Shown piece by piece: positions 14,879 to 35,746 of a stretch of DNA of 64,000 bases. The notes beneath the pieces were generated by a model. The model did no database searches, was not told the DNA's origin, and saw only the letters and a list, made by a program, of their open reading frames with translations. Origin of the DNA: Caldisericia bacterium (GTDB lineage: Bacteria > Caldisericota > Caldisericia > B22-G15); assembly GCA_026414995.1 (NCBI GenBank), contig JAOAHY010000002.1, positions 592 to 64,591 of the forward strand, read 5' to 3'. How positions within the stretch are numbered: the stretch's first letter is position 1; every line of letters starts with the position of its first letter. The translations under genes were made by a program, and so were the position numbers.

Positions 14879-16590
14879 CCTTCAAGCACCTCAACAGTTG
14901 AAATAACTCTAATAACTTCCTCAACTGTTGTTATACCTTTTTTTGCTTTATCTATTGCATCTTGAAGCAAAGATATAGTTCCATTTTTTATTGCATACTC
15001 TTTAATTTCAGTTGATGATCTTCTTTGAAGAACCATTTCTCTTATTGTATCATCTATCTTTAAAACTTCTTGAACTGCAATTCTTCCTTTATATCCACTA
15101 TTCCCACAGGTAATACAACCTTTACCTTTATAAAACACTCCATCATAATCTTCTAATCCAATTTGTTTCAAAATAAATTTATTAGGTTTATACTCTTCTT
15201 TGCATTCATTGCATATCTTTCTAACCAATCTTTGTGCTGTAACTCCAATTAAAGATGATGCTATAAGATATGGTTCAATTCCCATATCAATTAATCTTGT
15301 TGGTGCAGAGAAAGAATCATTTGTATGAAGTGTTGAAAAAACTAGGTGACCAGTCAATGCTGCTTCCATTGCAATTTGTGCTGTTTCTCTATCTCTTATC
15401 TCACCAACAAGAATAATATCTGGGTCTTGTCTTAAAAAGGATCTTAAAGCATTTGCAAATGTCAAATTGATTTTCGGATTAACCTGTACTTGAGTTATAC
15501 CATCAAGTTGGTATTCAACTGGATCTTCAACTGTCAATATATTTACCTCAGGTGTGTTTAATATTCTTAAAATTGCATATAGTGTTGTAGATTTACCAGA
15601 ACCAGTTGGACCTGTTATTAATATCATTCCGTATGGTTGTTTTATTAGAGTTTTAAAAATTTCAAGACTTGTTTCTGAAAACCCAAGTTGTTCTAGTGGA
15701 ATTAAAGACCTCTCTTTATCAAGTATTCTTAAAACAACTTTTTCTCCAAAAATTCCTGGAAGTACAGATACTCTTAAATCTACTTCTCTTCCTCTAAATT
15801 TTAAATTTATTCTTCCATCTTGAGGTCTTCTTCTCTCTGCTATATCTAGATTTGCCATAATTTTTGCTCTTGAAATTAAACCTGGTTGAATATTTTTTGG
15901 AAGATTCATTGCATCTCTTAAAACTCCGTCAATTCTATATCTTATTCTTAAAAACCTTTTTTGGGGTTCAATATGAATATCTGAAGCATTTGATGTAATT
16001 GCTTCTGTAATAATTTGGTTCATAAGTCTAATTATAGGTGCTGTTTCTGCTAAACTTTTTGCTTCATCTATAGATAATTCAACATCTTTTACTTCTTCTT
16101 TTTCTACTTCAATTGGAGTACTACCAGTCATTTCTTTAACAGCCTCTTTAACAGTTGTTTCCATAGCATAATATTTCTCTATATTTCTTAAAATTGATTC
16201 ATAGGATGCAACAAAAATTTTAATATTTGGTATAAAATTTCTTAGATAATCTATTGCGACAATATCTGTTGGATCAGCAATTGCAACCATAATTTTATCA
16301 TCTCTTGATTTTCCAAAAGGAATTGCTTTATATCTTCTTGCAACTTCTTCAGATATTATACGAACTATTTCTTTATCAATCTCAACTGTTGAAAGATCTA
16401 TATATGGAAAACCCCACTGTCTCGCTAAAAGATTTGCATATGTTTCTTCATTTATATATTTTAATTTTTTTAATGTGTCAAGAAGAGGTTCACCACTCTT
16501 TTTACTTTCATCTAGAGCTACTTTAAGTTGTTCTTCAGTTACAATTCCGTCTGTTATTAAATTATTTCCAATTTGTGAATATTTATCCAT
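14875..16590 (-). CDS. pilB: type IV pilus assembly ATPase PilB (GspE family)
   Basis: 571 aa. GspE_N domain, Walker A 'GPTGSGKSTT', tetracysteine 'CNECKEEY...CITCGNSGYKGR' zinc motif. Confidence 0.85.
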   Translation of the reverse strand: MDKYSQIGNNLITDGIVTEEQLKVALDESKKSGEPLLDTLKKLKYINEETYANLLARQWGFPYIDLSTVEIDKEIVRIISEEVARRYKAIPFGKSRDDKIMVAIADPTDIVAIDYLRNFIPNIKIFVASYESILRNIEKYYAMETTVKEAVKEMTGSTPIEVEKEEVKDVELSIDEAKSLAETAPIIRLMNQIITEAITSNASDIHIEPQKRFLRIRYRIDGVLRDAMNLPKNIQPGLISRAKIMANLDIAERRRPQDGRINLKFRGREVDLRVSVLPGIFGEKVVLRILDKERSLIPLEQLGFSETSLEIFKTLIKQPYGMILITGPTGSGKSTTLYAILRILNTPEVNILTVEDPVEYQLDGITQVQVNPKINLTFANALRSFLRQDPDIILVGEIRDRETAQIAMEAALTGHLVFSTLHTNDSFSAPTRLIDMGIEPYLIASSLIGVTAQRLVRKICNECKEEYKPNKFILKQIGLEDYDGVFYKGKGCITCGNSGYKGRIAVQEVLKIDDTIREMVLQRRSSTEIKEYAIKNGTISLLQDAIDKAKKGITTVEEVIRVISTVEVLEG

Positions 16591-23364: not shown

Positions 23365-24195
23365 TTATTTTTTAATATTTAAAATTTTTCTTGCTTCTTC
23401 AGGCGTTGCAATTTCTCTTCCAAATTCTAAACTAAATTTTGCGATTCTTTCAACAAGTTCAGCATTTGATTTTGCCAAAACTCCTTTTTTTATATAAATA
23501 TTATCTTCAAACCCTACTCTAACATTTCCACCAAGAGTAACTGCAATTATTCCAAGAGTAAATTCATATCTTCCAATTCCTGCAACCATCCAAGTTGAAT
23601 TTTTAGGAATAGAGTTGATTAAAAAAATTAAATTTTTAGGATCACCACTCATACCTCCTGGTACTCCTAAAACAAAATCAAAATGTATTGGTTCTTCAAT
23701 TAGATCCTCTTTTAAAAGTCTTAAAGCATTATCAATCATTCCTGCTTCAAAAATTTCAACTTCTGGTTTTATTTTTCTATCTTTCATAATTAAAGCAAAC
23801 TTTTTAATCCAATCTGGTGGATTATAAAAAACTCCATCGCCAAAATTTACAGTTCCACAAGTTAAAGATGCAAATTCAGGATTAAGTTCAAGTGGCTCAG
23901 CTCTTTCTTCAAAACTCATACCAATAGCTCCACCTGTGGAAATTTGAATTATTATATCTGGTACTTTTTCTTTTATTTTTTCAATAATTTCTTGGTATCT
24001 TTCTTTTTTTTGTGTTGGTGCCCCTCTTTCATCTCTTGCGTGAAGATGAACAACAGATGCTCCAGCATTATAACTCCTTAATACCTCATTTGCTATTTCT
24101 TCTGGTGTTAAAGGAAGGTAAGGCGTTTCTTTTCTTGTGACTTCAGCCCCTACTGGGGCAACAGTGATAATTAATTTTTCCATAATTAACTCCAT
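23365..24195 (-). CDS. kce: 3-keto-5-aminohexanoate cleavage enzyme (BKACE family)
   Basis: 276 aa, DUF849/BKACE fold (LIITVAPVGAEVTRKETPYLPLTPEEIANE...VVHLHARDE). Confidence 0.8.
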   Translation of the reverse strand: MELIMEKLIITVAPVGAEVTRKETPYLPLTPEEIANEVLRSYNAGASVVHLHARDERGAPTQKKERYQEIIEKIKEKVPDIIIQISTGGAIGMSFEERAEPLELNPEFASLTCGTVNFGDGVFYNPPDWIKKFALIMKDRKIKPEVEIFEAGMIDNALRLLKEDLIEEPIHFDFVLGVPGGMSGDPKNLIFLINSIPKNSTWMVAGIGRYEFTLGIIAVTLGGNVRVGFEDNIYIKKGVLAKSNAELVERIAKFSLEFGREIATPEEARKILNIKK

Positions 24196-24947
24196 TTATC
24201 AAATAAATTTCTCCTAACAACTTCATTAATAATATAAAATGCAACATCAGATGGATATGTATCAATTCCAAATCCCATATCATATCCGAGTTCATGAGCA
24301 AGTTCTTTTGTAATTCTAAATCCACCACAAATTAAAATAACTTTGTCTCTTATATTTTCAGCTTCAAGAAGTTCAACAAGATATGTTAAATTTTTAAGGT
24401 GAATGTTTCTTTGAGTAACTGTTTGAGAAATTAAAATCGCATTAGGCTTAAATTCAAAAATTTTTGAAACTAAAAATTCATGTGGAACTTGTGCTCCTAA
24501 ATTTAAAATTTCAAAAAAGGGATACCTTTCAAGTCCAGAATCACCTTTATAACCCTTTGCATTAATTATTGCATCAAGTCCAACAGTATGAGCATCTGAA
24601 CCAATTGTTGCAGCAATTATTTTAATCTTTCTTTTATCTAAAATCTTTTCACCTAATTCTAAAACTTCATGAAATTCATGTTTTCTTTTCTCTTCTTCTT
24701 TAACTTCTATTTTTGAAATAAGAACTCCTTTCTTAAATTTTCCATAAATAATGTAAAAGGAAAAATCTTCATAAAGATCTTTTTCAAAAACAATTATTTC
24801 ATCTGTAAGATTCATTTCTCTTGCAATTTTTCTTGCAATTTCTCTTGAAAGATTGGAGAGTTTAAGTGGTAAAGTGAAAGAAATTTGTACCATACCATCA
24901 TTTGGTAAATCACCATATGGTTTTATTATTAATTCTTTTTCTTTCAT
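24186..24947 (-). CDS. kamE: lysine 5,6-aminomutase beta subunit (B12-binding)
   Basis: 253 aa. B12-binding DxHxxG 'SDAHTVG' Rossmann module. Directly downstream of kamD. Confidence 0.8.
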   Translation of the reverse strand: MKEKELIIKPYGDLPNDGMVQISFTLPLKLSNLSREIARKIAREMNLTDEIIVFEKDLYEDFSFYIIYGKFKKGVLISKIEVKEEEKRKHEFHEVLELGEKILDKRKIKIIAATIGSDAHTVGLDAIINAKGYKGDSGLERYPFFEILNLGAQVPHEFLVSKIFEFKPNAILISQTVTQRNIHLKNLTYLVELLEAENIRDKVILICGGFRITKELAHELGYDMGFGIDTYPSDVAFYIINEVVRRNLFDKWS

Positions 24948-24956
24948 ATTCTTCTC

Positions 24957-26495
24957 CTAAATTTCAAATTCAATATAATCTTTATCTTTTTTAAACACTC
25001 CTTCATATCCTCTTCCCTCAAACTTAGGTCTTTTTACATTAGAAAAATAACCTTTTTCTAAAGCATTAAACAAACCTAAACTCTCTATTTCTTCAAGAGT
25101 TTGAACTGCTTTCTCAAAAATAGTTTTTGCTCTCGTTTCTATCAAACCACCATTTCTAATTACAAATTCTTTTGAAATGTTTCTTAATGCTCTTCTTATA
25201 TATTTTGCATTTTCAATTGCAAGATATCTATCTTGAACAAAAGGGGTGTGAAGTGCTTCAGTTAACATACCTAATAAAACTATCTCTTGATCCGTTAAAA
25301 TTGAAACAATATTGAATAAAGTATCCATTGCATAAGAGAAAAAGATATTTCCTGTTTTATATCTTGTTGGTGGCATATATTTAATTGGAGATTTCGGAAA
25401 AAGTTCTCTTACAAGTTGTGCTTGTGCAACTTCATATAAAAAAGAATTTTCTAAGTTTGGATCAAGTTCATAAGCATGTCCAAGACCAATTTGGTTTTCA
25501 TTCATAGAAGAAAATTTAGCAAGTTGCTCATTTATTAGTTGAGAAACTATAACTGTGTAATAAAATTCAAATGAATCAACTGTTTTAATCAAATTATCCT
25601 CACCAGTTACAATTGGTATATCTGCAAGTGATAAGATAAATCTACTGAATTTCTGATCAATCATAGTTCTAATTGGATTTATATTTCTAAATAAAATTCC
25701 ATATAGAGCATCATTTACCATAAGATCTAACCTTTCAAGAGCTGCAATTATTGAAATTTCAGGCATACATAAACCAGAAGAATAGTTAACAAGTTTTATG
25801 TATCTTTTTGTATTTTGTGTCACATCATCAAGTTTTTCTCTTACATATTTAAAATTTTCCTGTGTTGCATAAGTTCCGCCATATCCTTCTGTTGTTAAAC
25901 CATAAGGAACATAGTCAAGCAAAGATTGAGCAGTGCTTCTGATTATTGCAATGTAATCGGCACCAAGATAAGCAGCAGAAGATGCTTGTTTTGCATCTTC
26001 ATAAATATTTCCAGTTGCAACAATTACATAAAAGTATGGTTTTTCAAATGGAGTATATTTTTGAAAAAGTTCTTCTCTCTCTTTTTTTCTATTATTTATT
26101 CTCTCTAAACATTCTTTTTTTAAATTTTTTGCTAATTTTTCAACCTTTTCTTTTTCTAAAATTTTAATTTCATTTAAACTAATTTTTCCATCAAGAACTC
26201 CTTTAACAAAATCCTCTGGCTTCAAAGAGTTGTAGTTTAAAATTCCATTTGAAATAACAAATAAAACTCCTTTAGATAAAAGATTTTCTTTTTTTAATTT
26301 TTCAACAAAAAGATTTACAATGGGAACACCTTTTGAATCTACACCTTTTATGCCCAATAATCTTAAAATGCCCCTTTCAATTGAAACTGTTGAATAATCC
26401 TTAATTTCATTGATAACTTTTTCTGAAATTTTCTTTGCAATTTCTTTTGCATATAAAACTCTCTCTTCATTTAAATTTAAAATTCCCTTTTCCAT
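24957..26495 (-). CDS. kamD: lysine 5,6-aminomutase alpha subunit (PLP-binding TIM barrel)
   Basis: 512 aa, KamD/OraE-family length and context. Confidence 0.8.
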   Translation of the reverse strand: MEKGILNLNEERVLYAKEIAKKISEKVINEIKDYSTVSIERGILRLLGIKGVDSKGVPIVNLFVEKLKKENLLSKGVLFVISNGILNYNSLKPEDFVKGVLDGKISLNEIKILEKEKVEKLAKNLKKECLERINNRKKEREELFQKYTPFEKPYFYVIVATGNIYEDAKQASSAAYLGADYIAIIRSTAQSLLDYVPYGLTTEGYGGTYATQENFKYVREKLDDVTQNTKRYIKLVNYSSGLCMPEISIIAALERLDLMVNDALYGILFRNINPIRTMIDQKFSRFILSLADIPIVTGEDNLIKTVDSFEFYYTVIVSQLINEQLAKFSSMNENQIGLGHAYELDPNLENSFLYEVAQAQLVRELFPKSPIKYMPPTRYKTGNIFFSYAMDTLFNIVSILTDQEIVLLGMLTEALHTPFVQDRYLAIENAKYIRRALRNISKEFVIRNGGLIETRAKTIFEKAVQTLEEIESLGLFNALEKGYFSNVKRPKFEGRGYEGVFKKDKDYIEFEI

Positions 26496-26497
26496 AT

Positions 26498-27514
26498 TTA
26501 CCTTCCTTTAACTGGATCAAAAATTTCAAATGGTTTTAATCTATCTTTCAATGTTTCAAAAACCTCCTCCTCATCTTTTAAATTAAAAACTCCTTCTTGA
26601 TTAAAAGAGGAAAATGAAAATCCTAGAAGTTTAACTTGATTAATAACATAAATATCTCCTTCATTTTTTTTAAAATCAAAGTATATTTTTCTTGATGTGA
26701 GAATATTATAGGGATGCTCAACAATAATTTTTTTAATATCCTCTTTTATTATTTCATCTAAAATAGCATCAGTTAAAGCACCATTTATAAATAAATATTT
26801 CTCGTTAAATTTTTTAATTGTGTCTGATTTAATGAAATCATTATTAAGAATATAGATGAACTTATGGTGATTTTTTATTTTATAGATTATATTTTTTATT
26901 TCTTCATCTATCTCAGGGAGCAAAAAAAGTTCTTTATAAAATAGAGTTTCTTCAATTATCTCTTCTTTTTTATCCATAATATTAAGACCAGTTTGAAGAA
27001 TTATTCCATCAGAATATCTTATACTAACTTTTCTATCAATTGCTCCATCTATTAAAATGAAATCAAAATCTAGTTCTTTAATTTCATTTAATATTTTTTC
27101 TAAATCTTTTCCAATATATGGACCAGATACTTCAACATCTCCTTCTTTTTCGATTTTCACTAAAATTAATTCACCTTTTGAAGTAAATATATTAAATTTT
27201 TTAACTATTGAAATTTTAGCATCACTATTTTCAAGAGAATCAATAGAAGTTATCACATAAAAATTTTCTTTTAGATGAATTTTTGGTTTTTCAAAAAGAA
27301 AAAGGTAATCAAAACTTTCCCCATCAATTCCAATTGAAGTAATACAAACTTTCTTGCCCTCTTTCTCTAAAATTTCAATTATTTTATTTAAAGTTGTAGT
27401 TTTACCACAATTTTTTGAAAGTCCTATAATTGATAAAATTTTTATATTATTCTCTTTTAGTTTTTGTAAAATATCCATTTCTTCTTTTGATTCTCTCTGA
27501 ATCTGGTGGTTCAA
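26498..27514 (-). CDS. P-loop NTPase of unknown function embedded in the aminomutase operon
   Basis: 338 aa. Walker A 'GLSKNCGKTTT' and Walker-B-like 'DFILIDGA'. The 5' end overlaps kamA by up to 68 nt, so the start is uncertain. Confidence 0.4.
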   Translation of the reverse strand: MNHQIQRESKEEMDILQKLKENNIKILSIIGLSKNCGKTTTLNKIIEILEKEGKKVCITSIGIDGESFDYLFLFEKPKIHLKENFYVITSIDSLENSDAKISIVKKFNIFTSKGELILVKIEKEGDVEVSGPYIGKDLEKILNEIKELDFDFILIDGAIDRKVSIRYSDGIILQTGLNIMDKKEEIIEETLFYKELFLLPEIDEEIKNIIYKIKNHHKFIYILNNDFIKSDTIKKFNEKYLFINGALTDAILDEIIKEDIKKIIVEHPYNILTSRKIYFDFKKNEGDIYVINQVKLLGFSFSSFNQEGVFNLKDEEEVFETLKDRLKPFEIFDPVKGR

Positions 27515-28751
27515 TTAAAAGTCTATTACCAGAAAGTATTGATGCTGGGCCATCTTTACTTATTAAATTTTTCTCTTTTTCACATAAATCGCAATTTTTT
27601 GGACAGTTTGAAATTTTATCTTCAGGTTCTGTATAAGAGAAAAATCCACCTTCATAGTTTCTTAAAACAACCTTCCTATCTGACATTGATATAAGATAAT
27701 TTGGAAAAACTGGAATTTTACCACCACCAAGAGTATCAATAATATATGTAGGAACTTTAAAACCAGAAACATGTCCTCTTAAGTTTTCTATTATCTCAAT
27801 ACCTTTTCCAACTGATGTTCTAAAATGAGATATACCTTGTGAAAGATCACATTGATATAGATAATAAGGTCTTACCCTTATTTTTACAAGTTCATTAACT
27901 AGTTTCTTTTGAATTACAGGACAATCATTAATTCCTTTAAGAAGTACACTTTGGTTTCCAACTGGAATTCCTGCATCAACAAGTTTTAAAATTGCCTTTT
28001 TACTTTCATCTGTAATTTCTTTATAGTGGTTAAATTGAGTATTAAGCCAAATTGGATGATATTTCTTAAGCATATCAACTAATTTATCAGTTATTCTCAT
28101 AGGTAGAGTTGATGGCGCTCTTGTTCCAATTCTTATAACATCAACATGTGGAATTTTTCTTAACTCTTTAAGAATAAATTCAAGTGTATCATCTGAAACA
28201 AGAAGTGCATCGCCACCAGATAATAAAACATCATTTATTTCTGTATGTTCTCTTATATATTCAATCCCTAATAATAATTCTTCTTTTGTTCGAGCTCTAT
28301 CTCTTTCACCTGCTAACCTTCTTCTTGTGCAATGCCTACAATACATAGCACATTGGTCTGTAATTAAAAAAAGGACTCTATCTGGGTATCTATGAGTTAA
28401 TCCCTTGACTGGAGAGTCAACATCCTCAAAAAGAGGATCTAAAATATCTTCTTCCTTTATATCTAATTCTTTAATTGTTGGTACAGATTGCTTTCTTATA
28501 GGATCCTCTGGATCATCCTTATCAATAAGTGTAATCCAATATGGAGTTATAGCCATTCTTAATTTTATTAAAGAATTTTTTACCCCCTCTTCTTCATGAG
28601 GAGTTAAATTTATAACTTTTTTTAAAATTTCAAGATTCATTATTCTGTTTCTTAATTGCCAATGCCAATCATACCACTCCTCTTCTTTAACATCTTTCCA
28701 TATATCTATCTCTCTATAATCCCTCATATTACCCTCCAAACTCTTCTTCAA
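27447..28751 (-). CDS. kamA: lysine 2,3-aminomutase (radical SAM)
   Basis: 434 aa. 'CAMYCRHCTRRR' CxxxCxxC radical-SAM cluster motif and KamA-family flanks. Confidence 0.85.
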   Translation of the reverse strand: MKKSLEGNMRDYREIDIWKDVKEEEWYDWHWQLRNRIMNLEILKKVINLTPHEEEGVKNSLIKLRMAITPYWITLIDKDDPEDPIRKQSVPTIKELDIKEEDILDPLFEDVDSPVKGLTHRYPDRVLFLITDQCAMYCRHCTRRRLAGERDRARTKEELLLGIEYIREHTEINDVLLSGGDALLVSDDTLEFILKELRKIPHVDVIRIGTRAPSTLPMRITDKLVDMLKKYHPIWLNTQFNHYKEITDESKKAILKLVDAGIPVGNQSVLLKGINDCPVIQKKLVNELVKIRVRPYYLYQCDLSQGISHFRTSVGKGIEIIENLRGHVSGFKVPTYIIDTLGGGKIPVFPNYLISMSDRKVVLRNYEGGFFSYTEPEDKISNCPKNCDLCEKEKNLISKDGPASILSGNRLLIEPPDSERIKRRNGYFTKTKRE

Positions 28752-29766
28752 AAATTTTTCTTAAGTGAGAATTTTCTCTTAAAATATTAAATGCAAATTC
28801 AGCATGACCTTTTGCATAACCATTTCCAATCAACATATCAATATCTTTTCCAATCCCCTCTGCGCCAAGAGCTGCTTTTGTAAATGATGTTGCCATGCTA
28901 AAAAAGTAAACTAAGCCTCTCTCTTTGCATGAAAGAATTGATGACAACTCTGTATCTGGAACATTTACACAATTTATTACTTTATCACATAATTCTCCTT
29001 TAGTTATTTCATTAACTTTTTCATATATTTCAATTGGGTCTTGTGCATTTCCAGTTATTAAATAATCATAAAAACCTAATCTTTCAATTCTTTTTTTTGA
29101 TTTTTCTGAATGTGCAAGAGCAATTACAATTCCATTTTTTGCATATTTTTTTGCAATATATGTACAAAGAAGGCCAGATTTTCCACCTGCACCAATAATT
29201 AAAACTTTATCATCCTCTTTCACAATTCTTGAAACTTGAATTGGAGCACCTGCAACATCAAGAAGAGAAAGTGAAGTTCTTAAAGAGAAATCAGATGGAA
29301 TTTTTGTAAAAACTCCACTTTCAAAAATTATAGCTTTTCCTTCAATTTCAACTTGTTCTTTTTCAATATCTATGCTTTTTATTTTTTCAATTTTTAATGG
29401 AGTTAATGAAAGCGAAACAAGAGAAGCAATAAGGTCTCCTTCCTTTGCTTCAACTTTTTCCTTTAAGTCATCTCCTATTTTCTCAATAACACCAACAAAC
29501 ATACCACCAGAGCCAGTTATAGGATTATGCATCTTTCCTCTATCTTCAACAATTTTTAAAATTATCTCTTCAATTTTTTTCAAATCACCATTTGCTTCAT
29601 TTTTTATTTGAGTAAATGATGAAGAGTCTATATTTAAAAATTTAACATCAACTAAAATCTCATTTGAATAAATAATTCTAAAATCATTATTTAATTTCTT
29701 AGCAGGTTGAGGAAGATAACCTTCTGGCTCTAAGACTCTATGTCTTCCAAATTTATCTCCTCTCAT
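28729..29766 (-). CDS. kdd: L-erythro-3,5-diaminohexanoate dehydrogenase
   Basis: 345 aa. Rossmann 'VLIIGAGGKSG' and Kdd-family N-terminus. The ATG overlaps the stop of the upstream regulator (ATGA). Confidence 0.8.
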   Translation of the reverse strand: MRGDKFGRHRVLEPEGYLPQPAKKLNNDFRIIYSNEILVDVKFLNIDSSSFTQIKNEANGDLKKIEEIILKIVEDRGKMHNPITGSGGMFVGVIEKIGDDLKEKVEAKEGDLIASLVSLSLTPLKIEKIKSIDIEKEQVEIEGKAIIFESGVFTKIPSDFSLRTSLSLLDVAGAPIQVSRIVKEDDKVLIIGAGGKSGLLCTYIAKKYAKNGIVIALAHSEKSKKRIERLGFYDYLITGNAQDPIEIYEKVNEITKGELCDKVINCVNVPDTELSSILSCKERGLVYFFSMATSFTKAALGAEGIGKDIDMLIGNGYAKGHAEFAFNILRENSHLRKIFEEEFGG

Positions 29767-31114
29767 ACTTTTCTCCTTTCTCCTAATTTGTATTTTTTTA
29801 TTTTGTATTGAAGGGTTTGTCTTGGTATTTTTAAAATCTTACTTGCTTTAGATATATTTCTGTTTGAAATATTTAAAACTTCCTCAATTATCTTTTTTTC
29901 AAATTCAGATGATAACTCAGATAAACTCGACTCTTTAAAATAAATTGATCTTGGTAAATATGATTTTTTTATTATTTTTCCATGAGAATTTAAATATGAC
30001 GATTCAATTATGTAAAATAATTCTCCAACATTTCCTGGGAAGTTATAAGAAAGAAGAAAGTCTAAAAAATCATCACTAAATTTTTTTTCCTTTTTATATT
30101 TTTTATTGAGTTTATTTAGAAAATAATCTGATAGAAGTTTAATATCTTCTTTTCTCTCTCTTAAAGGTGGAATATCAAATTCAATTTTTGAAATTTCATA
30201 ATATAAATCTTTTTTAAGTTTTCCTTCTTTTATTGAAAAAATTGGTAAGGTCTCAATTGATGTTATTAATCTTCCTCCAAATTTACTACTTTCTAAAAGA
30301 TTTGTTAATTGATCCTGTAATCTTAGTGGAAGAGAATCTATATTTGCAAGATAAAGAGTTCCGCCATCTAATATGTGGATAAAACCCTCTTTAATTAATT
30401 TTTGTTTTGAATCATATATTCCAAAGATTATTTCTTCAAGTAGTGACTCCTCATAAGTTGAACAATTTAAATATAAAAATTTCTTTTCTTTTCTTTTTGA
30501 TATTGAGTGAATTATTTGAGAAAGTAATCTTTTTCCAACCTGTGGTTCACCAACAAGTAGTATAGGAGTATTAATGAGTCTTCAATTTTTTTAATATCTT
30601 CTTCTAATTTATTCATTTTCTGATAAATTTGTTCCAATAATACTTCTTGTTTTAAATCAACTTTATAATTTTGTTCTGCCATTAATTGATTTTTTTCTTC
30701 TTTTTTTCCACTCTGAAGTTCAATTATTTTTTCACTTAATTTTTTAACTTCTGTTATATCTCTTGATAGTTCAATTGCGCCAATTAGTTCTCCTCCATAA
30801 TATAAAGGAAAAGTTGTATTAAGAGTTGTTATTTCTTTTCCTTTATATGTTAAAAAAACTTGAAGTTTATTTATTATTGGTTCGCCTGTTTTTAAAACCT
30901 TTAGAAGAGTTGATGTTTCTGGTGTTAAAGATGGAAAAACTTCAAGAATATTTTTTCCGATAACTTCATCTTCAGATAGTCCTTCAAGTTTTGAATTTGC
31001 TTTGTTATAAAAAAGCGTAACACCATTTTTATCAATGATATGAATTCCTATATCAACATAATTTAAAAGTATATCAATTAATGATTCCCAAGGAAAATAT
31101 TTTATCCTTTCCAT
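29764..31114 (-). CDS. PAS-domain plus sigma54-activator-like (degenerate AAA+) plus Fis-type HTH regulator, interrupted by an apparent single-base frameshift near 30560-30585
   Basis: The PAS ORF (30512-31114) and a 273-codon open frame (29764-30582, in-frame stop at 30583-30585, no ATG/GTG/TTG, absent from the ORF track) encode an NtrC-like central domain. Walker A is degenerate ('GEPQVGKR'), Walker B is 'LANIDS' instead of DEIGE, and GAFTGA is replaced by 'DSKQKL'. C-terminal HTH is 'ISKASKILKIPRQTLQYKIKKY'. Confidence 0.6.
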
Positions 31115-31185
31115 TGTTAAAATTATATCATATTTTTAAAATAGAAATTTTGCCTAAAATTTAGCATATTTAATAAAAAAAAAAA

Positions 31186-32535
31186 TTAAATTTCTATACT
31201 TTTTGTTGCTTCATCAATTGCTTCATCTAAAATTTGAACTATTCTTTCTAAATCTTTATCTTCAATTACGAGTGGTGGTGCAATATAAGTTTTATCAACT
31301 GATGCTCTACAAAGATATAAACCTCTTTTATATGCAGCTTCCTCAACTCTCATAGCAAATCTTATGTTAGAAGGAATTCTCTCTTTTGTGCTTTTATCTT
31401 TAACATACTCAATTGCCCAATGAAGCCCAACGCCTCTTATATCACCAACTCTTTTGTGTTTCTTTAACTCATTTAATAGTTTTCCTAATTTTTCTCCTTT
31501 TTCTTTTGCTTTTTGAGGTAAATTTTCTTTTTCAATTAACTCTATATTTTTAAGAGCAGCAACAGTTGAAAGGCAGTGTCCTCCAAATGTGTGTCCATGG
31601 ACAAACATATTATCAACAAAAACTTCAAATAATTCTTCTTTAACGATCATTGCACCAAGAGGTGCGTAACCTGATGTTATCCCTTTTCCAAAAACCATAA
31701 TATCAGGGTCTAAATTAAAAAGTGAAGAACCAAAAAGTTCACCACATCTTCCCCATCCGTTTATAACTTCATCTGCAATTATTAAAATATTATTTTCTCT
31801 TGCAATAGTTTGAATCTCCTCAAAATATTTTTTTGGTGGAACAAGAGCACCTGCTGCACTCATAACTGGTTCCATTATTATTGCTGCAATTGTTCCTTTT
31901 CCTTCATAATAGACAATATCTTTAAAACATTTGGCGCATTCTACATTACATGAGTTTGGCTCTTTTCCAAAATCACATCTATAACAATATGGAGGAGAGA
32001 TATGAATAAAAAAAGGAAGAAGAGGTTCAAATGGTTGTCTATAGATTCTTAAACCTGTTGCAGAAAGTGCCCCATAAGTTACCCCATGATATGATTCTCT
32101 TCTAGAAACAATTTTCTTTTTTTCTGGATAACCTTTAATTGCCCAGTATTGTCTTGCAAATTTAATAGCTGATTCAACTGCCTCTGATCCACCAGAGATA
32201 AAAAATGTTGTCTTTAGTGTTGATGGAGTTATTTTACTTAATTTATCAGCAAGTTTTATTGCTGGTTCATTAAAATAACCTCCAAATAAACTTGCATAAT
32301 TTATTTTTTCAAGTTGTTCTTTAAGGGATTCAATTATCTCTTTTCTTCCATGGCCTATATTTACTGTCCAAAGAATAGACAAACCATCTATATACTCTTT
32401 TCCATCAATATCATAAATTTTTGCACCATCTCCTTTTACAATAATTTTTGGCCCTTTCTCTCTTATCTCTTTAACAAAAGCATAATGAGGTAAAACATTG
32501 CTCTCAGCAATTTTTATGAGTTCATTTTTATCCAT
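31186..32535 (-). CDS. class III (omega) aminotransferase, candidate 3-aminobutyryl-CoA aminotransferase (Kat) by context
   Basis: 449 aa. PLP-lysine region 'DEVINGWGRCGELF'. Carries an unusual Cys-rich insert 'YCYRCDFGKEPNSCNVECAKC'. Located directly upstream of the lysine-fermentation operon, which lacks kal. Confidence 0.55.
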   Translation of the reverse strand: MDKNELIKIAESNVLPHYAFVKEIREKGPKIIVKGDGAKIYDIDGKEYIDGLSILWTVNIGHGRKEIIESLKEQLEKINYASLFGGYFNEPAIKLADKLSKITPSTLKTTFFISGGSEAVESAIKFARQYWAIKGYPEKKKIVSRRESYHGVTYGALSATGLRIYRQPFEPLLPFFIHISPPYCYRCDFGKEPNSCNVECAKCFKDIVYYEGKGTIAAIIMEPVMSAAGALVPPKKYFEEIQTIARENNILIIADEVINGWGRCGELFGSSLFNLDPDIMVFGKGITSGYAPLGAMIVKEELFEVFVDNMFVHGHTFGGHCLSTVAALKNIELIEKENLPQKAKEKGEKLGKLLNELKKHKRVGDIRGVGLHWAIEYVKDKSTKERIPSNIRFAMRVEEAAYKRGLYLCRASVDKTYIAPPLVIEDKDLERIVQILDEAIDEATKSIEI

Positions 32536-33605: not shown

Positions 33606-34532
33606 TCATATATCAATATAATCGAGCCATCCATATTTATCTTCTTCTTTGCCCTCAACTATGTTAGAATATTTTTCCTGAAGCAATCTTGTTATTTCTC
33701 CAATCTCACCTTTTCCAACTTTAATCTTATCTACACTTATAACTGGTGTTACTTCAGCAGCAGTTCCTACTAAAAATATCTCATCAGCAATATAAAGTGC
33801 TTCTCTTGGCATGAATTCAACTCTAACTTCAATTCCAAGATCTCTTGCCAACTTAATAATTGAATCTCTTGTTATTCCTTCCAAAATTGATGAAGATAGA
33901 GGTGGCGTATAAAGTATACCATTTTTTACAAGAAAGATATTTTCTCCACTTCCTTCACTTATATAACCAAAATAATCAAGAAGAATTGCCTCTTGAAATC
34001 CATAACTTACAACTTCCATTAAAGCAAGTTGAGAATTTAGATAATTACCACTTGCTTTTGCCATAGCAGGTAAAGTATCAGGTGCAAATTTTCTCCATGA
34101 AGAAACCATTACATTCAACCCTTTTTTTATATTTTCATCTCCAAGATATCTTCCAAGATCAAAAGCAATAATAGATACTTCAACTGGAACATTTAGTGGA
34201 TTTGGTGCAATAGTTCCATATCCTCTATAAACTATAGGTCTTATATATGCAGATTCTAAATCATTTTTCCTTATCAACTCTTTTGTTGCTTCCCTTAATT
34301 CTTCAACTGAATAAGGAATCTCCATTCTATAAATTTTTGCAGAATTTTTTAATCTAATAAGGTGGTCTTTTAATCTAAAAATCTCTGGACCTTTGTCTGT
34401 TTTATAACACCTTATACCTTCAAAAACACCAGAACCATAATGAATTACATGTGATAGAATATGAATTTTTGCATCCCACCAGTTAACAAATTCACCATTC
34501 ATCCAAATAAATTTAGCCTCCTTAATCGGCAT
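33606..34532 (-). CDS. ilvE: branched-chain amino acid aminotransferase (class IV)
   Basis: 308 aa. 'HYGSGVFEGIRCY' and fold-type IV family features. Confidence 0.8.
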   Translation of the reverse strand: MPIKEAKFIWMNGEFVNWWDAKIHILSHVIHYGSGVFEGIRCYKTDKGPEIFRLKDHLIRLKNSAKIYRMEIPYSVEELREATKELIRKNDLESAYIRPIVYRGYGTIAPNPLNVPVEVSIIAFDLGRYLGDENIKKGLNVMVSSWRKFAPDTLPAMAKASGNYLNSQLALMEVVSYGFQEAILLDYFGYISEGSGENIFLVKNGILYTPPLSSSILEGITRDSIIKLARDLGIEVRVEFMPREALYIADEIFLVGTAAEVTPVISVDKIKVGKGEIGEITRLLQEKYSNIVEGKEEDKYGWLDYIDI

Positions 34533-34651
34533 GGCTCCTCCTTTTTATATGATAAATATAATTAAACAATATTTTATGATAAATTTAATTTAATTCAATA
34601 AATTTTTATATCAAAGCATAAAATAATTTAAATTGAAATAATTAACTTTAT

Positions 34652-35746
34652 TTGAAAGAAATCTTTTTAAGAGTTATAATTTTTAAAGTTATGTATCCAA
34701 GACTAATTATTAACATAAAAGCAATAGGTGAGAATTATTTAAAAATAAAGAAAAAATGTGAGGAGTTAGGAGTTGAAGTTGTTCCTGTAACAAAAGTTGT
34801 TAGAGGTGATGAAAACATAGTTAGAACTCTTGTTTCTCTTGGTGCTAAAGTTATAGGTGATTCAAGAGTTAAAAATATAAAAAATTTTTCTCATATTAAA
34901 GTAAATACACTTCTTTTAAGAGCACCTTCTTTTTCAGAGATAGAAGAAACATCTGATTTGGTTGATATCTCTTTAGAAACAGAACTTTCTACAATTGAAA
35001 AACTTTCACTCTCTTTAAAAAAGAAAGGTAAAAAACATGGAGTAATTGTTATGGTGGAAGTTGGAGAATTAAGAGAGGGAGTTATGCCAGAAGAAGTTAT
35101 TCCTTTTGTGAAGAAGTTGATAACATTTCCAAATATTGAATTTCTTGGTCTTGGAACAAATACAACATGTTTTTCTGGAATCATTCCAGATGAAAAAAAT
35201 TTAAAAGTTTTATATGATTTAAAGATAAAACTCGAAGATGAAGGGATTCCTGTAAAAATTATTTCAGGAGGTGGATCAAATTTACTAAAAATGATATGGG
35301 ATAAAAAGTTACCTAATTTTATAAACCAAGTAAGAGTTGGAGAAGGCATATTTTGTGGAGTTGAAGCAATAAAAAGAGAGAGACTTCCTGGTTTAAGAGA
35401 AGATACATTTTTACTTGAAGCAGAGTTAATTGAAGTTAAAAGAAAACCATCAAAACCATGGGGAGAGAGAACAAAAGATGCTTTTGGAGAAGAAGTTGAA
35501 TTTAAAGATGAAGGTGAAATGATAAGGGGGATTCTTTCTCTTGGAAGACAAGATGTAAATTTAGGTGGAATAAAAAACGACGAAGATATTAAAATAGTTG
35601 GTGCATCAAGTGATCATATGGTTATCAATTTAAATAAAAGATACTTTTCAAAAGTTGGAGATGTAATTTCGTTCAGGTTAAATTACTCAGGTGTTTTATC
35701 TGCAATGACTTCTCCTTATATAGAAAAAATTTACATTGAAGAATGA
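34652..35746 (+). CDS. alanine-racemase-family PLP enzyme (Orr/YhfX-like putative amino-acid racemase)
   Basis: 364 aa (true start possibly the Met at 34691). Ala_racemase_N-type TIM barrel plus C-terminal beta domain. Confidence 0.5.
   Translation: MKEIFLRVIIFKVMYPRLIINIKAIGENYLKIKKKCEELGVEVVPVTKVVRGDENIVRTLVSLGAKVIGDSRVKNIKNFSHIKVNTLLLRAPSFSEIEETSDLVDISLETELSTIEKLSLSLKKKGKKHGVIVMVEVGELREGVMPEEVIPFVKKLITFPNIEFLGLGTNTTCFSGIIPDEKNLKVLYDLKIKLEDEGIPVKIISGGGSNLLKMIWDKKLPNFINQVRVGEGIFCGVEAIKRERLPGLREDTFLLEAELIEVKRKPSKPWGERTKDAFGEEVEFKDEGEMIRGILSLGRQDVNLGGIKNDEDIKIVGASSDHMVINLNKRYFSKVGDVISFRLNYSGVLSAMTSPYIEKIYIEE

What the first reader, a model, noticed from the sequence alone, without database searches (positions are those of the whole stretch)
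29764..31114. Lysine-fermentation operon is headed by a PAS plus sigma54-activator-like regulator that has lost Walker A/B and GAFTGA and carries a frameshift
What the sequence shows:
- The PAS ORF (30512-31114) and a 273-codon open frame with no start codon (29764-30582) together encode PAS, an NtrC-type central domain and a Fis-type HTH.
- The two frames overlap for about 70 nt, and the AAA-frame has an in-frame stop at 30583-30585. That implies a 1-nt indel near 30560-30585, which is either a real pseudogene lesion, a sequencing error or a recoding site.
- The central domain has a degenerate Walker A (GEPQVGKR instead of GESGTGKE).
- Walker B is LANIDS instead of DEIGE.
- DSKQKL stands in place of the sigma54-contacting GAFTGA loop.
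- Its stop overlaps the kdd ATG (ATGA), so it is translationally coupled to the operon.

Inference: an enhancer-binding-protein homologue that can neither hydrolyse ATP nor contact sigma54 has probably been repurposed as a sigma54-independent amino-acid (lysine/beta-lysine?) responsive regulator. I have not seen this architecture described for lysine fermentation clusters.
Basis: seen in the sequence. Interest (0 to 1): 0.55.

Follow-up and report, generated by a model that had tools for sequence, protein, structure and literature searches.

The report
Frameshifted sigma54-independent KamR-like lysine-operon regulator
The lysine-fermentation operon of this uncultured Caldisericota bacterium is headed by a regulator descended from a sigma-54 activator (KamR-like) that has lost its motor and sigma-54-contact parts in the whole lineage. 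It still keeps its sensor, its DNA-binding helix and its operator, and only the copy in this genome is broken by a very young frameshift.

Summary
A 200-codon PAS ORF (31114..30512, minus strand) overlaps by 70 nt a 272-codon open frame with no start codon (30581..29766). Together they encode PAS + EBP-type AAA+ + lid + Fis-type HTH, and the stop overlaps the kdd ATG.

The frameshift is specific to this MAG. About 40 Caldisericota orthologue clusters (62-83% identity) are single intact ORFs in identical synteny. The lesion is net +2/-1 nt at 30565-30580, outside any long homopolymer. The downstream frame shows no decay, so the lesion is either very recent or an assembly error. Recoding is rejected.

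The degenerate motifs are shared by the whole clade and are under purifying selection:
- the GAFTGA loop is replaced or deleted;
- the L2 hairpin is deleted;
- Walker B DE has become AN;
- sensor I and the Arg fingers are lost.

The closest outgroups are canonical Firmicutes EBPs that sit upstream of kdd-kamA. Each has a perfect -24/-12 promoter and a TGCY-N8-RGCA dyad. Caldisericota keep that dyad but place it against a conserved extended -10, apparently leaderless, sigma70-type promoter.

So this is a new member of the known class of "atypical EBPs", related to the known KamR. Whether it activates or represses, and whether these genomes carry rpoN, remain untested.

The parts
31151..31166 (.). 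Dyad TGCTAAATTTTAGGCA (TGCY-N8-RGCA), the proposed operator of the regulator. It abuts the -35 position, at about -51..-36 from the predicted start.
   Evidence: It is the only intergenic match to the pattern in the window; there are 4 matches against 0.84 expected, and the other 3 are intragenic. It occurs at the same place in 9 of the 10 Caldisericota loci, with a degenerate left arm in L010. The same dyad lies upstream of the sigma54 promoter of kdd in 4 Firmicutes loci and upstream of the regulator gene in 3 of them.
31122..31130 (-). Extended -10 element TGATATAAT (TGnTATAAT). It lies 20 nt downstream of the dyad and 7 nt upstream of the ATG, so a leaderless or near-leaderless mRNA is predicted. 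There is no Shine-Dalgarno sequence.
   Evidence: The geometry dyad-20-TGnTATAAT-7-ATG is invariant in 10 loci (6 nt to the ATG in L006), and none of them has an SD. The intergenic region is more conserved than third codon positions: 0.91-0.93 against 0.70-0.72 within subclade 1.
30512..31114 (-). The 5' part of the regulator gene as an ORF: the PAS sensor (aa 21-124 = 31054..30743), the linker, then 20 out-of-frame codons ending at TAA 30514-30512.
   Evidence: PAS dN/dS is about 0.03. NCBI annotates it as a stand-alone 'PAS domain S-box protein', MCX8094773.
30565..30580 (-). Frameshift site GACTCATTAATACTCC. It is net +2 nt against the orthologues (GAC--CTTGATACTCC), equivalent to an extra codon plus loss of one base. 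The shift must lie between the TGA at 30584-30582 and the start of homology at about 30575.
   Evidence: DNA alignments, frame translations, and all orthologues being in frame.
29763..30581 (-). The 3' part of the regulator gene: 272 codons covering a degenerate EBP-type AAA+ domain, the AAA lid and the Fis-type HTH, followed by TGA. It has no start codon.
   Evidence: AlphaFold gives pLDDT 81-93 for the AAA+ core. Foldseek gives a TM-score (normalised to target length) of about 0.8 to the NtrC1 AAA+ domain.
30528..30551 (-). Walker A GEPQVGKR. The P-loop core GxxxxGK is retained; E has become R after the Lys.
   Evidence: G, G and K are invariant in 23 clade members and in the Firmicutes relatives.
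30384..30425 (-). The L1 loop region FGIYDSKQKLIKEG, where canonical relatives have G(A/S/G)FTGA.
   Evidence: One Caldisericota subclade has a 14-residue deletion here.
30333..30356 (-). Walker B LYLANIDS, with the DE pair replaced by AN.
   Evidence: The change is present across the whole clade.
30252..30293 (-). An 11-residue deletion of the pre-sensor-I (L2) hairpin, and sensor I ATN replaced by SIE.
   Evidence: Alignment to the Firmicutes relatives and to NtrC1.
30192..30218 (-). The Arg-finger region LKKDLYYEI, where NtrC1 has FREDLYYRL. Both Arg residues are lost.
29790..29855 (-). HTH_8 with recognition helix PRQTLQYK, identical in Caldisericota and in the Firmicutes KamR-like proteins.
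   Evidence: Invariant columns P432-K439; Pfam HTH_8 at 2e-10.
23365..29766 (-). The co-directional lysine-fermentation genes kdd, kamA, P-loop ORF, kamD, kamE and kce. The kdd ATG overlaps the regulator stop (ATGA).
   Evidence: Synteny is identical in L001, L002 and L009-L011; the L008 contig ends within kamA.

Best explanation
**What it is.** The gene is the Caldisericota version of a KamR-like regulator with PAS sensor, EBP-type AAA+ domain and Fis-type HTH. It is the first gene of the lysine-fermentation operon regulator-kdd-kamA-orf-kamD-kamE-kce.

**Shown:**
- In the whole Caldisericota clade the AAA+ domain has become a pseudo-ATPase. It lacks the sigma54-contacting L1 (GAFTGA) and L2 loops, the Walker B acids, sensor I and the Arg fingers.
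- The AAA+ fold, the GxxxxGK P-loop, the PAS domain and the DNA-recognition helix are kept under purifying selection.
- The closest outgroup proteins are canonical EBPs of Firmicutes that sit upstream of the same operon. Each of those loci has a perfect TGGCAT-N5-TTGC(A/T) promoter and a TGCY-N8-RGCA dyad.
- Caldisericota keep that dyad but have no -24/-12 element. The dyad lies 20 nt upstream of a perfect TGnTATAAT, which lies 7 nt upstream of the regulator's ATG.

**Inferred mechanism:**
- The protein binds the dyad as a dimer or higher oligomer through its HTH.
- It senses an amino-acid-related signal through its PAS domain, most simply lysine or a pathway intermediate.
- It controls a sigma70-type, probably leaderless, promoter that transcribes itself and the operon.
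- I lean about 60:40 to class II-like activation, because the site centre is near -43.5 and the -35 is poor, as proposed for VpsR. The alternative is repression by occlusion.
- The retained P-loop may still bind a nucleotide or another ligand as an oligomerisation switch, without hydrolysis.

**The copy in this window.** It carries a private frameshift at 30565-30580 that separates PAS from AAA+/HTH. The frameshift is either a very recent real loss of function, possibly a population variant (about 60%), or a consensus or assembly error in the MAG (about 37%). Either way it is not part of how the system works.
For: **Architecture**
- Pfam domain hits.
- AAA+ fold retained in the AlphaFold model and its PDB matches.

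**Clade-wide degeneracy**
- Shown by alignments A1 and A3 and by alignment to NtrC1.

**Purifying selection**
- dN/dS is about 0.03 for PAS, 0.09-0.19 for AAA+/lid and 0.08-0.23 for the HTH among intact orthologues.

**Orthologue integrity and synteny**
- About 40 clusters hold intact 430-452 aa orthologues.
- Synteny and the ATGA overlap are identical in all loci examined.

**Outgroup**
- The canonical relatives P0041, P0045, P0051 and P0085 lie directly upstream of kdd-kamA-orf-MutS_V-kamD-kamE.
- Each of those loci has a perfect sigma54 promoter 49-87 nt (pattern start to just past the kdd start codon) upstream of kdd, and one dyad 67-131 nt further upstream.

**Caldisericota promoter**
- The geometry is invariant in 10 loci and there is no SD.
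- The window has no -24/-12 match with 0 or 1 mismatch, and none at the operon head.
- The recognition helix is invariant across phyla.

**Frameshift young or artefactual**
- The window's AAA+ dN/dS is 0.15-0.16, the same as for intact pairs.
- Only 2 private changes occur at otherwise invariant AAA/HTH columns.
- 192 possible single-base changes would create a stop, yet none is present. That gives P = 0.04 at 5% neutral divergence, against dS of about 0.75 to the nearest relative.
- The other roughly 20 genes shared with the orthologue loci have the expected lengths, so the assembly is not generally indel-prone.

**Precedents**
- KamR (PMC4428206) and the atypical EBPs, including VpsR as a proposed class II activator (PMC6158489; PMC3162934).
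Against: - No experiment or transcript data were available. The transcription start, the sigma factor used, DNA binding and the ligand are all inferred.
- Presence or absence of rpoN in Caldisericota could not be tested. There is none in the 64 kb window or in the loci I hold, which is uninformative.
- A perfect extended -10 element can be strong on its own, which favours a repressor model.
- An alternative promoter reading, TAGGCA-18-TATGAT, would put the dyad over the -35.
- In L010 the left arm of the dyad is degenerate.
- The window's linker (aa 131-180) has dN/dS of about 0.9-1.0 and several private indels. Some relaxation in this lineage before the frameshift therefore cannot be excluded.
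- Orthology to B. thuringiensis KamR itself was not tested.
Confidence: 0.7

Rival explanations
1. The frameshift is an assembly or sequencing artefact, or a minority-strain consensus. On this view the organism encodes an intact regulator of about 450 aa like all its relatives.
For: The downstream 272-codon frame is perfectly open, with no excess of substitutions and the same dN/dS as intact orthologues. The source is a MAG seen only once in the databases, so there is no independent confirmation. All 40 orthologue clusters are intact.
Against: The lesion is not in a long homopolymer or a simple repeat. All other genes in the roughly 23 kb syntenic stretch are intact, so the assembly has a low indel error rate. 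The same 110-nt linker shows several other real, frame-preserving indels in this lineage, so it is an indel-prone region in evolution.
Confidence: 0.37
2. The frameshift is real and recent. This lineage, or part of its population, has lost the HTH-bearing regulator and makes at most a 200-aa PAS-only protein. The operon is then either deregulated, if the protein is a repressor, or on its way to silencing, if it is an activator.
For: The sequence context is non-homopolymeric. The assembly is otherwise clean. The linker of this lineage already has dN/dS of about 1 and a compensated frameshift pair. Real split genes exist in relatives: the aldo-keto reductase is split in L001 and L009. The AAA frame has no start codon and no SD.
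Against: There is no secondary decay at all in 816 nt in which 192 single-base changes would give a stop. Every relative keeps the gene under selection. All six operon genes are intact.
Confidence: 0.6
3. The junction is a programmed recoding site (ribosomal frameshift or transcriptional slippage) that produces the full-length protein.
For: The two halves are perfectly preserved and overlap by 70 nt. An A7 run lies 8 nt upstream of the junction motif.
Against: The shift would have to occur within about 10 nt (GAA GAC TCA TTA A), which contains no X XXY YYZ or other slippery motif. Adding or removing an A in the A7 run leads straight into TGA or TAA. No orthologue has the shift, so it is not a conserved feature.
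Confidence: 0.03
4. The clade proteins are still conventional sigma54-dependent activators, or alternatively are functionless decaying remnants.
For: Databases name them 'sigma 54-interacting transcriptional regulator', and the Pfam Sigma54_activat domain is above threshold.
Against: Against the conventional reading: GAFTGA is absent or deleted, the L2 hairpin is deleted, Walker B DE, sensor I and the Arg fingers are all lost, and there is no -24/-12 promoter at the operon. Against decay: there are 40 intact clusters, dN/dS is 0.03-0.2, and the operator and promoter are invariant.
Confidence: 0.03
5. The components are as in the best explanation, but the protein is a repressor. It would block an intrinsically strong extended -10 promoter until the PAS domain binds its inducer.
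For: The TGnTATAAT element is perfect and has a T-rich upstream tract. An alternative -35 reading overlaps the dyad. In Firmicutes the same dyad lies just downstream of a TATAAT in L013, and 12-36 nt before the regulator's own ATG in L013, L015 and L016, which is an autorepression-type position. The atypical EBP NtrX is a repressor (PMC6158489). The operon is intact here despite the broken regulator.
Against: The ancestral role at kdd is activation (KamR). The site is upstream of the -35 position rather than over the -10 or +1, and the -35 hexamer is poor (AAATTT), as in activator-dependent promoters.
Confidence: 0.4

Closest known systems
KamR of Bacillus thuringiensis HD73 (sigma54-dependent PAS-EBP of the kam locus) and the KamR-like EBPs of Tepidimicrobium, Thermoflavimicrobium, Caminicella and a Tissierellaceae MAG found here
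   Same: The PAS + AAA+ + HTH_8 architecture is the same. The gene sits immediately upstream of, and co-directional with, lysine 2,3-aminomutase and the lysine-fermentation genes. Identity to the Firmicutes proteins is about 40%. The recognition helix is identical and the operator is the same TGCY-N8-RGCA dyad.
   Different: The Firmicutes proteins keep GAFTGA, Walker A and B and the Arg fingers. They act on a separate TGGCAT-N5-TTGC promoter in a roughly 200-300-nt gap before kdd. The Caldisericota protein has lost all of these, has no gap before kdd (ATGA overlap), and is expressed with the operon from a sigma70-type promoter. Direct comparison with the B. thuringiensis KamR sequence was not possible.
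VpsR of Vibrio cholerae (atypical EBP)
   Same: It lacks GAFTGA and has non-catalytic Walker B residues. [quoted passage not shown] The AAA+ domain is similar: phmmer 1e-25 and a Foldseek hit.
   Different: VpsR has a receiver domain and binds c-di-GMP, and it regulates biofilm genes. Here the sensor is a PAS domain, the L2 hairpin is also deleted, and the target is an amino-acid fermentation operon that includes the regulator itself.
TyrR / PhhR, DhaR, HupR, HsfA and NtrX (other sigma54-independent EBP homologues)
   Same: All have an EBP-derived central domain without a functional GAFTGA and act at sigma70 promoters. TyrR, PhhR and DhaR respond to small metabolites through N-terminal ACT, PAS or GAF domains (PMC3162934; PMC6158489). 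The NCBIfam scores to DhaR (2e-46) and TyrR (2e-28) are far below their cut-offs.
   Different: This is a different lineage, nearest to PrdR, RocR and KamR-type Firmicutes EBPs. From my own knowledge rather than a test here, TyrR keeps Walker B and binds and hydrolyses ATP. The present clade has lost Walker B, sensor I and both Arg residues. It is not a member of any of those orthologous groups.
Canonical bacterial enhancer-binding proteins (NtrC1, PspF, ZraR)
   Same: The AAA+ fold is shared, with a TM-score (normalised to target length) of about 0.8 and rmsd 2.7-3 A to NtrC1. Sequence identity to the NtrC1 AAA+ domain is 33-38%.
   Different: The defining L1 and L2 insertions and the catalytic residues are missing, and there is no sigma54 promoter.

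Membership tests
Bacterial enhancer-binding protein (sigma54-dependent activator) | AAA+ central domain of the EBP clade (Pfam Sigma54_activat) plus AAA lid | tested here: met
   PF00158 at 8e-22 and PF25601 at 2.5e-20. The AlphaFold core has pLDDT 81-93, and Foldseek to NtrC1 gives a TM-score (normalised to target length) of about 0.8.
Bacterial enhancer-binding protein (sigma54-dependent activator) | GAFTGA motif on the L1 loop, which contacts sigma54 | tested here: not met
   It is replaced by YDSKQKLI in the window and its subclade, and is a 14-residue gap in the other subclade. The Firmicutes relatives have G(A/S/G)FTGA.
Bacterial enhancer-binding protein (sigma54-dependent activator) | Pre-sensor-I (L2) insertion | tested here: not met
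   There is an 11-residue deletion relative to the Firmicutes relatives and NtrC1.
Bacterial enhancer-binding protein (sigma54-dependent activator) | Catalytic set: Walker A GxxxxGK, Walker B hhhhDE, sensor I Asn, Arg finger(s) | tested here: not met
   The Walker A core is kept (GEPQVGK). DE has become AN, ATN has become SIE, and FRxDLYYRL has become LKKDLYYEI. The sensor II Arg is Gly in this subclade.
Bacterial enhancer-binding protein (sigma54-dependent activator) | Target promoter of the -24/-12 type (TGGCAC-N5-TTGC) | tested here: not met
   There is none in 31115-31185, and no match with 0 or 1 mismatch in the 64 kb window. In contrast, L013-L016 carry perfect sites.
Bacterial enhancer-binding protein (sigma54-dependent activator) | rpoN present in the genome | not testable with these tools
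   Only 64 kb of the MAG is on hand. No literature on this was found.
Atypical (sigma54-independent) EBP homologues (TyrR, PhhR, DhaR, HupR, HsfA, NtrX, VpsR) | EBP-homologous central domain lacking a functional GAFTGA | tested here: met
Atypical (sigma54-independent) EBP homologues (TyrR, PhhR, DhaR, HupR, HsfA, NtrX, VpsR) | Acts at a sigma70-type promoter | tested here: inconclusive
   A conserved TGnTATAAT with an adjacent operator is present in 10 loci. There are no transcription start or in vitro data.
Atypical (sigma54-independent) EBP homologues (TyrR, PhhR, DhaR, HupR, HsfA, NtrX, VpsR) | Regulation independent of sigma54, shown experimentally | not testable with these tools
   This needs genetics or in vitro transcription.
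KamR-type regulators of lysine aminomutase loci | PAS + AAA+ + HTH_8 protein encoded directly upstream of kamA/kdd in the same orientation | tested here: met
   The window, 9 Caldisericota loci and 4 Firmicutes loci.
KamR-type regulators of lysine aminomutase loci | Shared operator and recognition helix with relatives | tested here: met
   The TGCY-N8-RGCA dyad is present in both phyla, and PRQTLQYK is invariant.
KamR-type regulators of lysine aminomutase loci | Sigma54-dependent activation of the kam promoter, as shown for B. thuringiensis KamR | tested here: not met
   There is no -24/-12 promoter and no sigma54-contact loop in Caldisericota.
KamR-type regulators of lysine aminomutase loci | Sequence orthology to B. 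thuringiensis HD73_2539 itself | not tested
Pseudogene | Frame disruption that is absent from orthologues | tested here: met
Pseudogene | Relaxed selection or secondary lesions downstream | tested here: not met
   dN/dS is 0.15-0.16, there are no stops, and there are only 2 private changes at invariant sites.
Pseudogene | Lesion supported by sequencing reads | not testable with these tools
   No reads are available, and the protein is seen on one contig only.
Programmed frameshift | Slippery site, and conservation of the shift in relatives | tested here: not met
   There is no slippery heptamer in 30571-30583. Slippage in the A7 run gives immediate stops. All relatives are in frame.

The most novel reading that the evidence does not exclude
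An orthologous regulator-operator pair has been rewired from sigma54 enhancer mode to sigma70 mode.

- **Firmicutes (KamR-like).** The dyad acts as an upstream activating sequence 67-131 bp from a -24/-12 promoter of kdd. A second copy lies in the regulator's own promoter.
- **Caldisericota.** The sigma54 promoter and its gap have been lost, and the operon has fused behind the regulator gene. The regulator's own dyad-bearing, leaderless extended -10 promoter now drives the whole pathway.
- **The AAA+ domain.** The motor has fossilised into a non-hydrolysing scaffold. Its invariant P-loop may still bind a nucleotide or another small ligand.

If Caldisericota also lack rpoN, this would be a clean natural example of how an EBP survives transfer into, or persists in, a sigma54-less host.
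Probability: 0.5. Interest if true: 0.55.

Novelty: new member of a known kind. Interest (0 to 1): 0.4.

Why it matters
- **Annotation.** These roughly 40 Caldisericota proteins are labelled 'sigma 54-interacting' or 'arginine utilization regulatory protein' in databases. The evidence here says they are sigma54-independent regulators of lysine fermentation.
- **Evolution.** The canonical version (Firmicutes) and the atypical version (Caldisericota) of the same regulator can be compared side by side, with the same operator and the same operon. That makes the sigma54-to-sigma70 transition of an EBP directly testable by swapping promoters and AAA+ domains. The field has discussed this question mainly from isolated cases such as TyrR and VpsR.
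- **This genome.** The broken copy matters only for predicting whether lysine fermentation is regulated, constitutive or silent in that population.

Tried and rejected
1. **Recoding.** I inspected the roughly 10-nt interval where the shift must happen, and the A7 run upstream. There is no slippery motif, and slippage in the run gives immediate stops.
2. **Internal start for the AAA/HTH part.** There is no ATG, GTG or TTG in 272 codons and no SD.
3. **TGA as a sense codon.** Some database orthologues are 452 aa because the gene callers read the terminal TGA as Trp. 'translates_to_query: no' shows this is a calling artefact. Even with TGA as sense, a TAA two codons further upstream closes the frame.
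4. **Sigma54 promoters.** There are 28 matches with 2 mismatches against 11.3 expected, but they are almost all intragenic and none is at the operon head. I take this to be codon bias.
5. **rpoN.** It is not in the window or the held loci. Literature searches for Caldisericota with rpoN or sigma54 found nothing useful. A protein database search could not have been filtered by taxon, so I did not spend one on it.
6. **Riboswitch or other RNA at the operon head.** There were no Rfam hits at gathering threshold in the window, and no terminator-like sites in 29600-31400.
7. **Generic sigma70 scan.** It is uninformative in 26% GC DNA: 15 sites found against 11.6 expected.
8. **The primary KamR paper.** It is not held.
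9. **GTDB genome scan.** It returned only four Caldisericota loci and not the window's own genome.

Full report
**Source and anatomy**

The window is from a MAG named 'Caldisericia bacterium', on a contig of 167,094 bp. Its kdd, PAS ORF and class-III aminotransferase are NCBI proteins MCX8094772-74. The PAS ORF is seen on one contig only. GC content is about 26%.

The feature lies on the minus strand.
- A 200-codon ORF (31114..30512) encodes a PAS domain and a linker.
- A second frame is open for 272 codons (30581..29766). It is preceded by TGA at 30584-30582 and ends with TGA at 29765-29763. That stop overlaps the kdd ATG as ATGA.
- The second frame contains no ATG, GTG or TTG at all.
- The chance of such an open frame in this composition is about 7e-12. 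The other two frames of the stretch carry 24 and 29 stops.
- Joined, the two parts hit PAS_4, Sigma54_activat, AAA_lid_14 and HTH_8. The best NCBIfam model is PrdR, at 1e-64 but far below its cut-off.

The downstream genes are kdd, kamA, a P-loop ORF, kamD, kamE and kce. Two convergent CoA-transferase genes follow.

**The frameshift is private to this genome**

A database search found about 40 clusters of 430-452-aa single-ORF orthologues, 62-83% identical. Where they are named, the name is Caldisericia or Caldisericota.

Nine orthologous loci show the same order: Aminotran_4, tsaD, Aminotran_3, a 67-68-nt gap, regulator, ATGA overlap, kdd, kamA, orf, kamD, kamE, kce.

DNA alignment places the lesion in GACTCATTAATACTCC (30580..30565), against GAC--CTTGATACTCC in relatives. 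That is a net +2 nt, or equivalently one extra codon minus one base. The site is not in a long homopolymer.

The same 110-nt linker carries further private indels that preserve the frame: +3, +18, and a compensated -1/+1 pair that turns FKT into LKQ. Its dN/dS is about 0.9-1.0, against 0.1-0.43 in other pairs.

Downstream of the shift nothing has decayed.
- dN/dS of the AAA+/lid part is 0.15-0.16 against the nearest relatives. Intact pairs give the same range, 0.09-0.19.
- Only two private changes occur at otherwise invariant columns.
- No stop is present, although 192 single-base changes would create one. That gives P(no stop) = 0.04 at 5% neutral divergence, while dS to the nearest relative is about 0.75.
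- All other genes in the syntenic roughly 23 kb have the expected lengths.

So the lesion is either very young or a consensus error. I put this at about 60% real and about 37% artefact. Only reads can decide.

Recoding is rejected. The shift would have to occur within about 10 nt that contain no slippery motif. Slippage in the nearby A7 run gives immediate stops. No relative shares the shift.

**The degenerate motifs are a property of the clade, not decay**

The clade was aligned with canonical Firmicutes relatives and with A. aeolicus NtrC1.

| Feature | Canonical | Caldisericota clade |
|---|---|---|
| Walker A | GESGVGKE (NtrC1) | GE(P/S)(Q/G)VGKR; GxxxxGK core invariant |
| Walker B | DE | AN |
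| L1 loop | G(A/S/G)FTGA | YDSKQKLI in one subclade, 14-residue gap in the other |
| Pre-sensor-I (L2) hairpin | present | 11 residues deleted |
| Sensor I | ATN | SIE |
| Arg fingers | FRxDLYYRL | LKKDLYYEI |

The sensor II Arg is Gly in the window's subclade.

Despite this, the domain is under purifying selection. It is modelled confidently as an EBP-type AAA+ fold, with pLDDT 81-93 and a TM-score (normalised to target length) of about 0.8 to NtrC1. NtrX and VpsR are also among the structural hits.

The PAS domain is the most constrained part, with dN/dS about 0.03 and 97-99% identity within the subclade. The HTH recognition helix PRQTLQYK is invariant even across phyla.

**Where it came from and what it binds**

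The best non-Caldisericota hits, at about 40% identity, keep G(A/S/G)FTGA, Walker A and Walker B. Four of the five I examined lie directly upstream of kdd-kamA-orf-MutS_V-kamD-kamE. These four are from Tepidimicrobium, Thermoflavimicrobium, Caminicella and a Tissierellaceae MAG. The fifth, from Thermosediminibacter, does not.

In all four, the 200-300-nt gap before kdd holds two elements:
- a perfect TGGCAT-N5-TTGC(A/T) promoter 49-87 nt (pattern start to just past the kdd start codon) before kdd;
- one dyad TGCY-N8-RGCA a further 67-131 nt upstream. The four are TGCCTAAAATTGGGCA, TGCCGAAAAATCGGCA, TGCTCAATTTTGAGCA and TGCCGAAAATTAGGCA.

In three of the four, another copy lies 12-36 nt before the regulator's own ATG.

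Caldisericota have the same dyad, TGCTAAATTTTAGGCA or TGCTAATTTTTAAGCA. It sits in the 68-nt gap upstream of the regulator, at window 31151-31166. It is the only intergenic match in 64 kb; there are 4 matches against 0.84 expected.

**The Caldisericota promoter**

In ten loci the geometry is invariant: dyad, 20 nt, TGnTATAAT, 7 nt, ATG (6 nt in L006). None has a Shine-Dalgarno sequence. The spacer is better conserved than third codon positions.

This predicts a sigma70-type extended -10 promoter that gives a leaderless or 1-nt-leader mRNA, with the operator centred near -43.5. There is no -24/-12 element at the operon head, and no match with 0 or 1 mismatch anywhere in the window.

The generic promoter scanner is uninformative in this AT-rich DNA. 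It does offer an alternative reading, TAGGCA-18-TATGAT, in which the dyad overlaps the -35. No Rfam family or terminator-like site is present.

**Mechanism**

Shown:
- architecture;
- clade-wide loss of the sigma54-contact and catalytic features;
- purifying selection;
- a conserved operator and a conserved sigma70-like promoter;
- canonical sigma54-dependent counterparts at the same operon in Firmicutes.

Inferred:
- The protein binds the dyad through its HTH.
- It senses a lysine-related signal through its PAS domain.
- It controls the promoter that transcribes itself and the operon.
- I favour class II-like activation (about 60%), because the site abuts a poor -35, as proposed for VpsR (PMC6158489).
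- Repression (about 40%) is a serious rival. The extended -10 is perfect, and the ancestral autoregulatory sites in Firmicutes lie in repressor-type positions.
- The invariant P-loop suggests retained ligand binding without hydrolysis.

**Comparison with what is known**

- A PAS-EBP that controls a kam locus is known. KamR of B. thuringiensis activates the -12/-24 kamA promoter with sigma54 (Zhang et al. 2014, summarised in PMC4428206).
- EBP homologues without GAFTGA that use sigma70 are a recognised class: TyrR, PhhR, DhaR, HupR, HsfA, NtrX, VpsR (PMC3162934; PMC6158489).
- The Clostridiales sigma54 regulon reconstruction does not list a lysine regulon (PMC6615313).
- I found nothing on Caldisericota regulators.

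The finding is therefore a new member of a known kind. Its added value is that the canonical and atypical forms share operon and operator.

**Limits**

- There are no reads, no transcript data and no biochemistry.
- The rpoN status of Caldisericota is unknown.
- Orthology to B. thuringiensis KamR itself was not tested.

Noticed in passing
window 31112-31130, and the same position in L001, L002, L004-L006 and L008-L011: The regulator gene appears leaderless. TGnTATAAT ends 7 nt before the ATG and no Shine-Dalgarno sequence is present. kdd, by contrast, has AGGAG 6 nt upstream of its ATG.
   Followed up: partly
L013 7955-7987, L015 7973-7988, L016 7935-7980: In the Firmicutes KamR-like loci a second copy of the TGCY-N8-RGCA dyad lies 12-36 nt before the regulator's own ATG. 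In L013 and L016 there is also a GGCAC-N4-GTGCC palindrome. This suggests autoregulation of the canonical EBP gene.
   Followed up: partly
P0001, P0005, P0008 (L008 and L009, 10001-11359): Database versions of the orthologue that are 452 aa long are the 442-aa protein read through its TGA stop as Trp. These are gene calls made with genetic code 4 on very AT-rich contigs, and the tool reports 'translates_to_query: no'.
   Followed up: yes
window 30640-30700 (minus strand): The linker carries a compensated frameshift pair relative to close relatives, GATTT(T)AAAACAA(+G)AAG, which turns FKT into LKQ. It also has +3 and +18 nt in-frame insertions. Linker dN/dS is about 1 in this lineage only.
   Followed up: partly
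window 26498-27514 (minus strand); the equivalent ORF in all loci: A conserved P-loop ORF of about 320-340 aa lies between kamA and kamD. It has no Pfam family above threshold, only weak AAA_31 and MobB hits. In Firmicutes it is followed by a MutS_V-domain protein that Caldisericota lack. It may be an aminomutase reactivase or chaperone.
   Followed up: no
window 34532-34652, against L008 5313-6473, L010 5304-6461, L001 5619-6474 and L009 5311-6471: An aldo-keto reductase gene lies between the Aminotran_4 gene and alr. It is intact in L008 and L010, split into fragments in L001 and L009, and absent from the window. This is evidence of ongoing gene decay in these genomes.
   Followed up: no
window 1-64000: There are no tRNA genes (ARAGORN) and no Rfam family at gathering threshold in 64 kb.
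   Followed up: no
whole window (for example 16270-16285, 51654-51669): Matches to TGGCAC-N5-TTGCW with 2 mismatches are enriched, 28 against 11.3 expected, but almost all are inside genes. This is probably codon or dipeptide bias rather than promoters.
   Followed up: no
window 31186-32535 (minus strand): A class-III aminotransferase gene always precedes the regulator, at a fixed distance of 67-68 nt, in Caldisericota but not in Firmicutes. No terminator-like site is found between them. Its relation to the lysine pathway is unknown.
   Followed up: no
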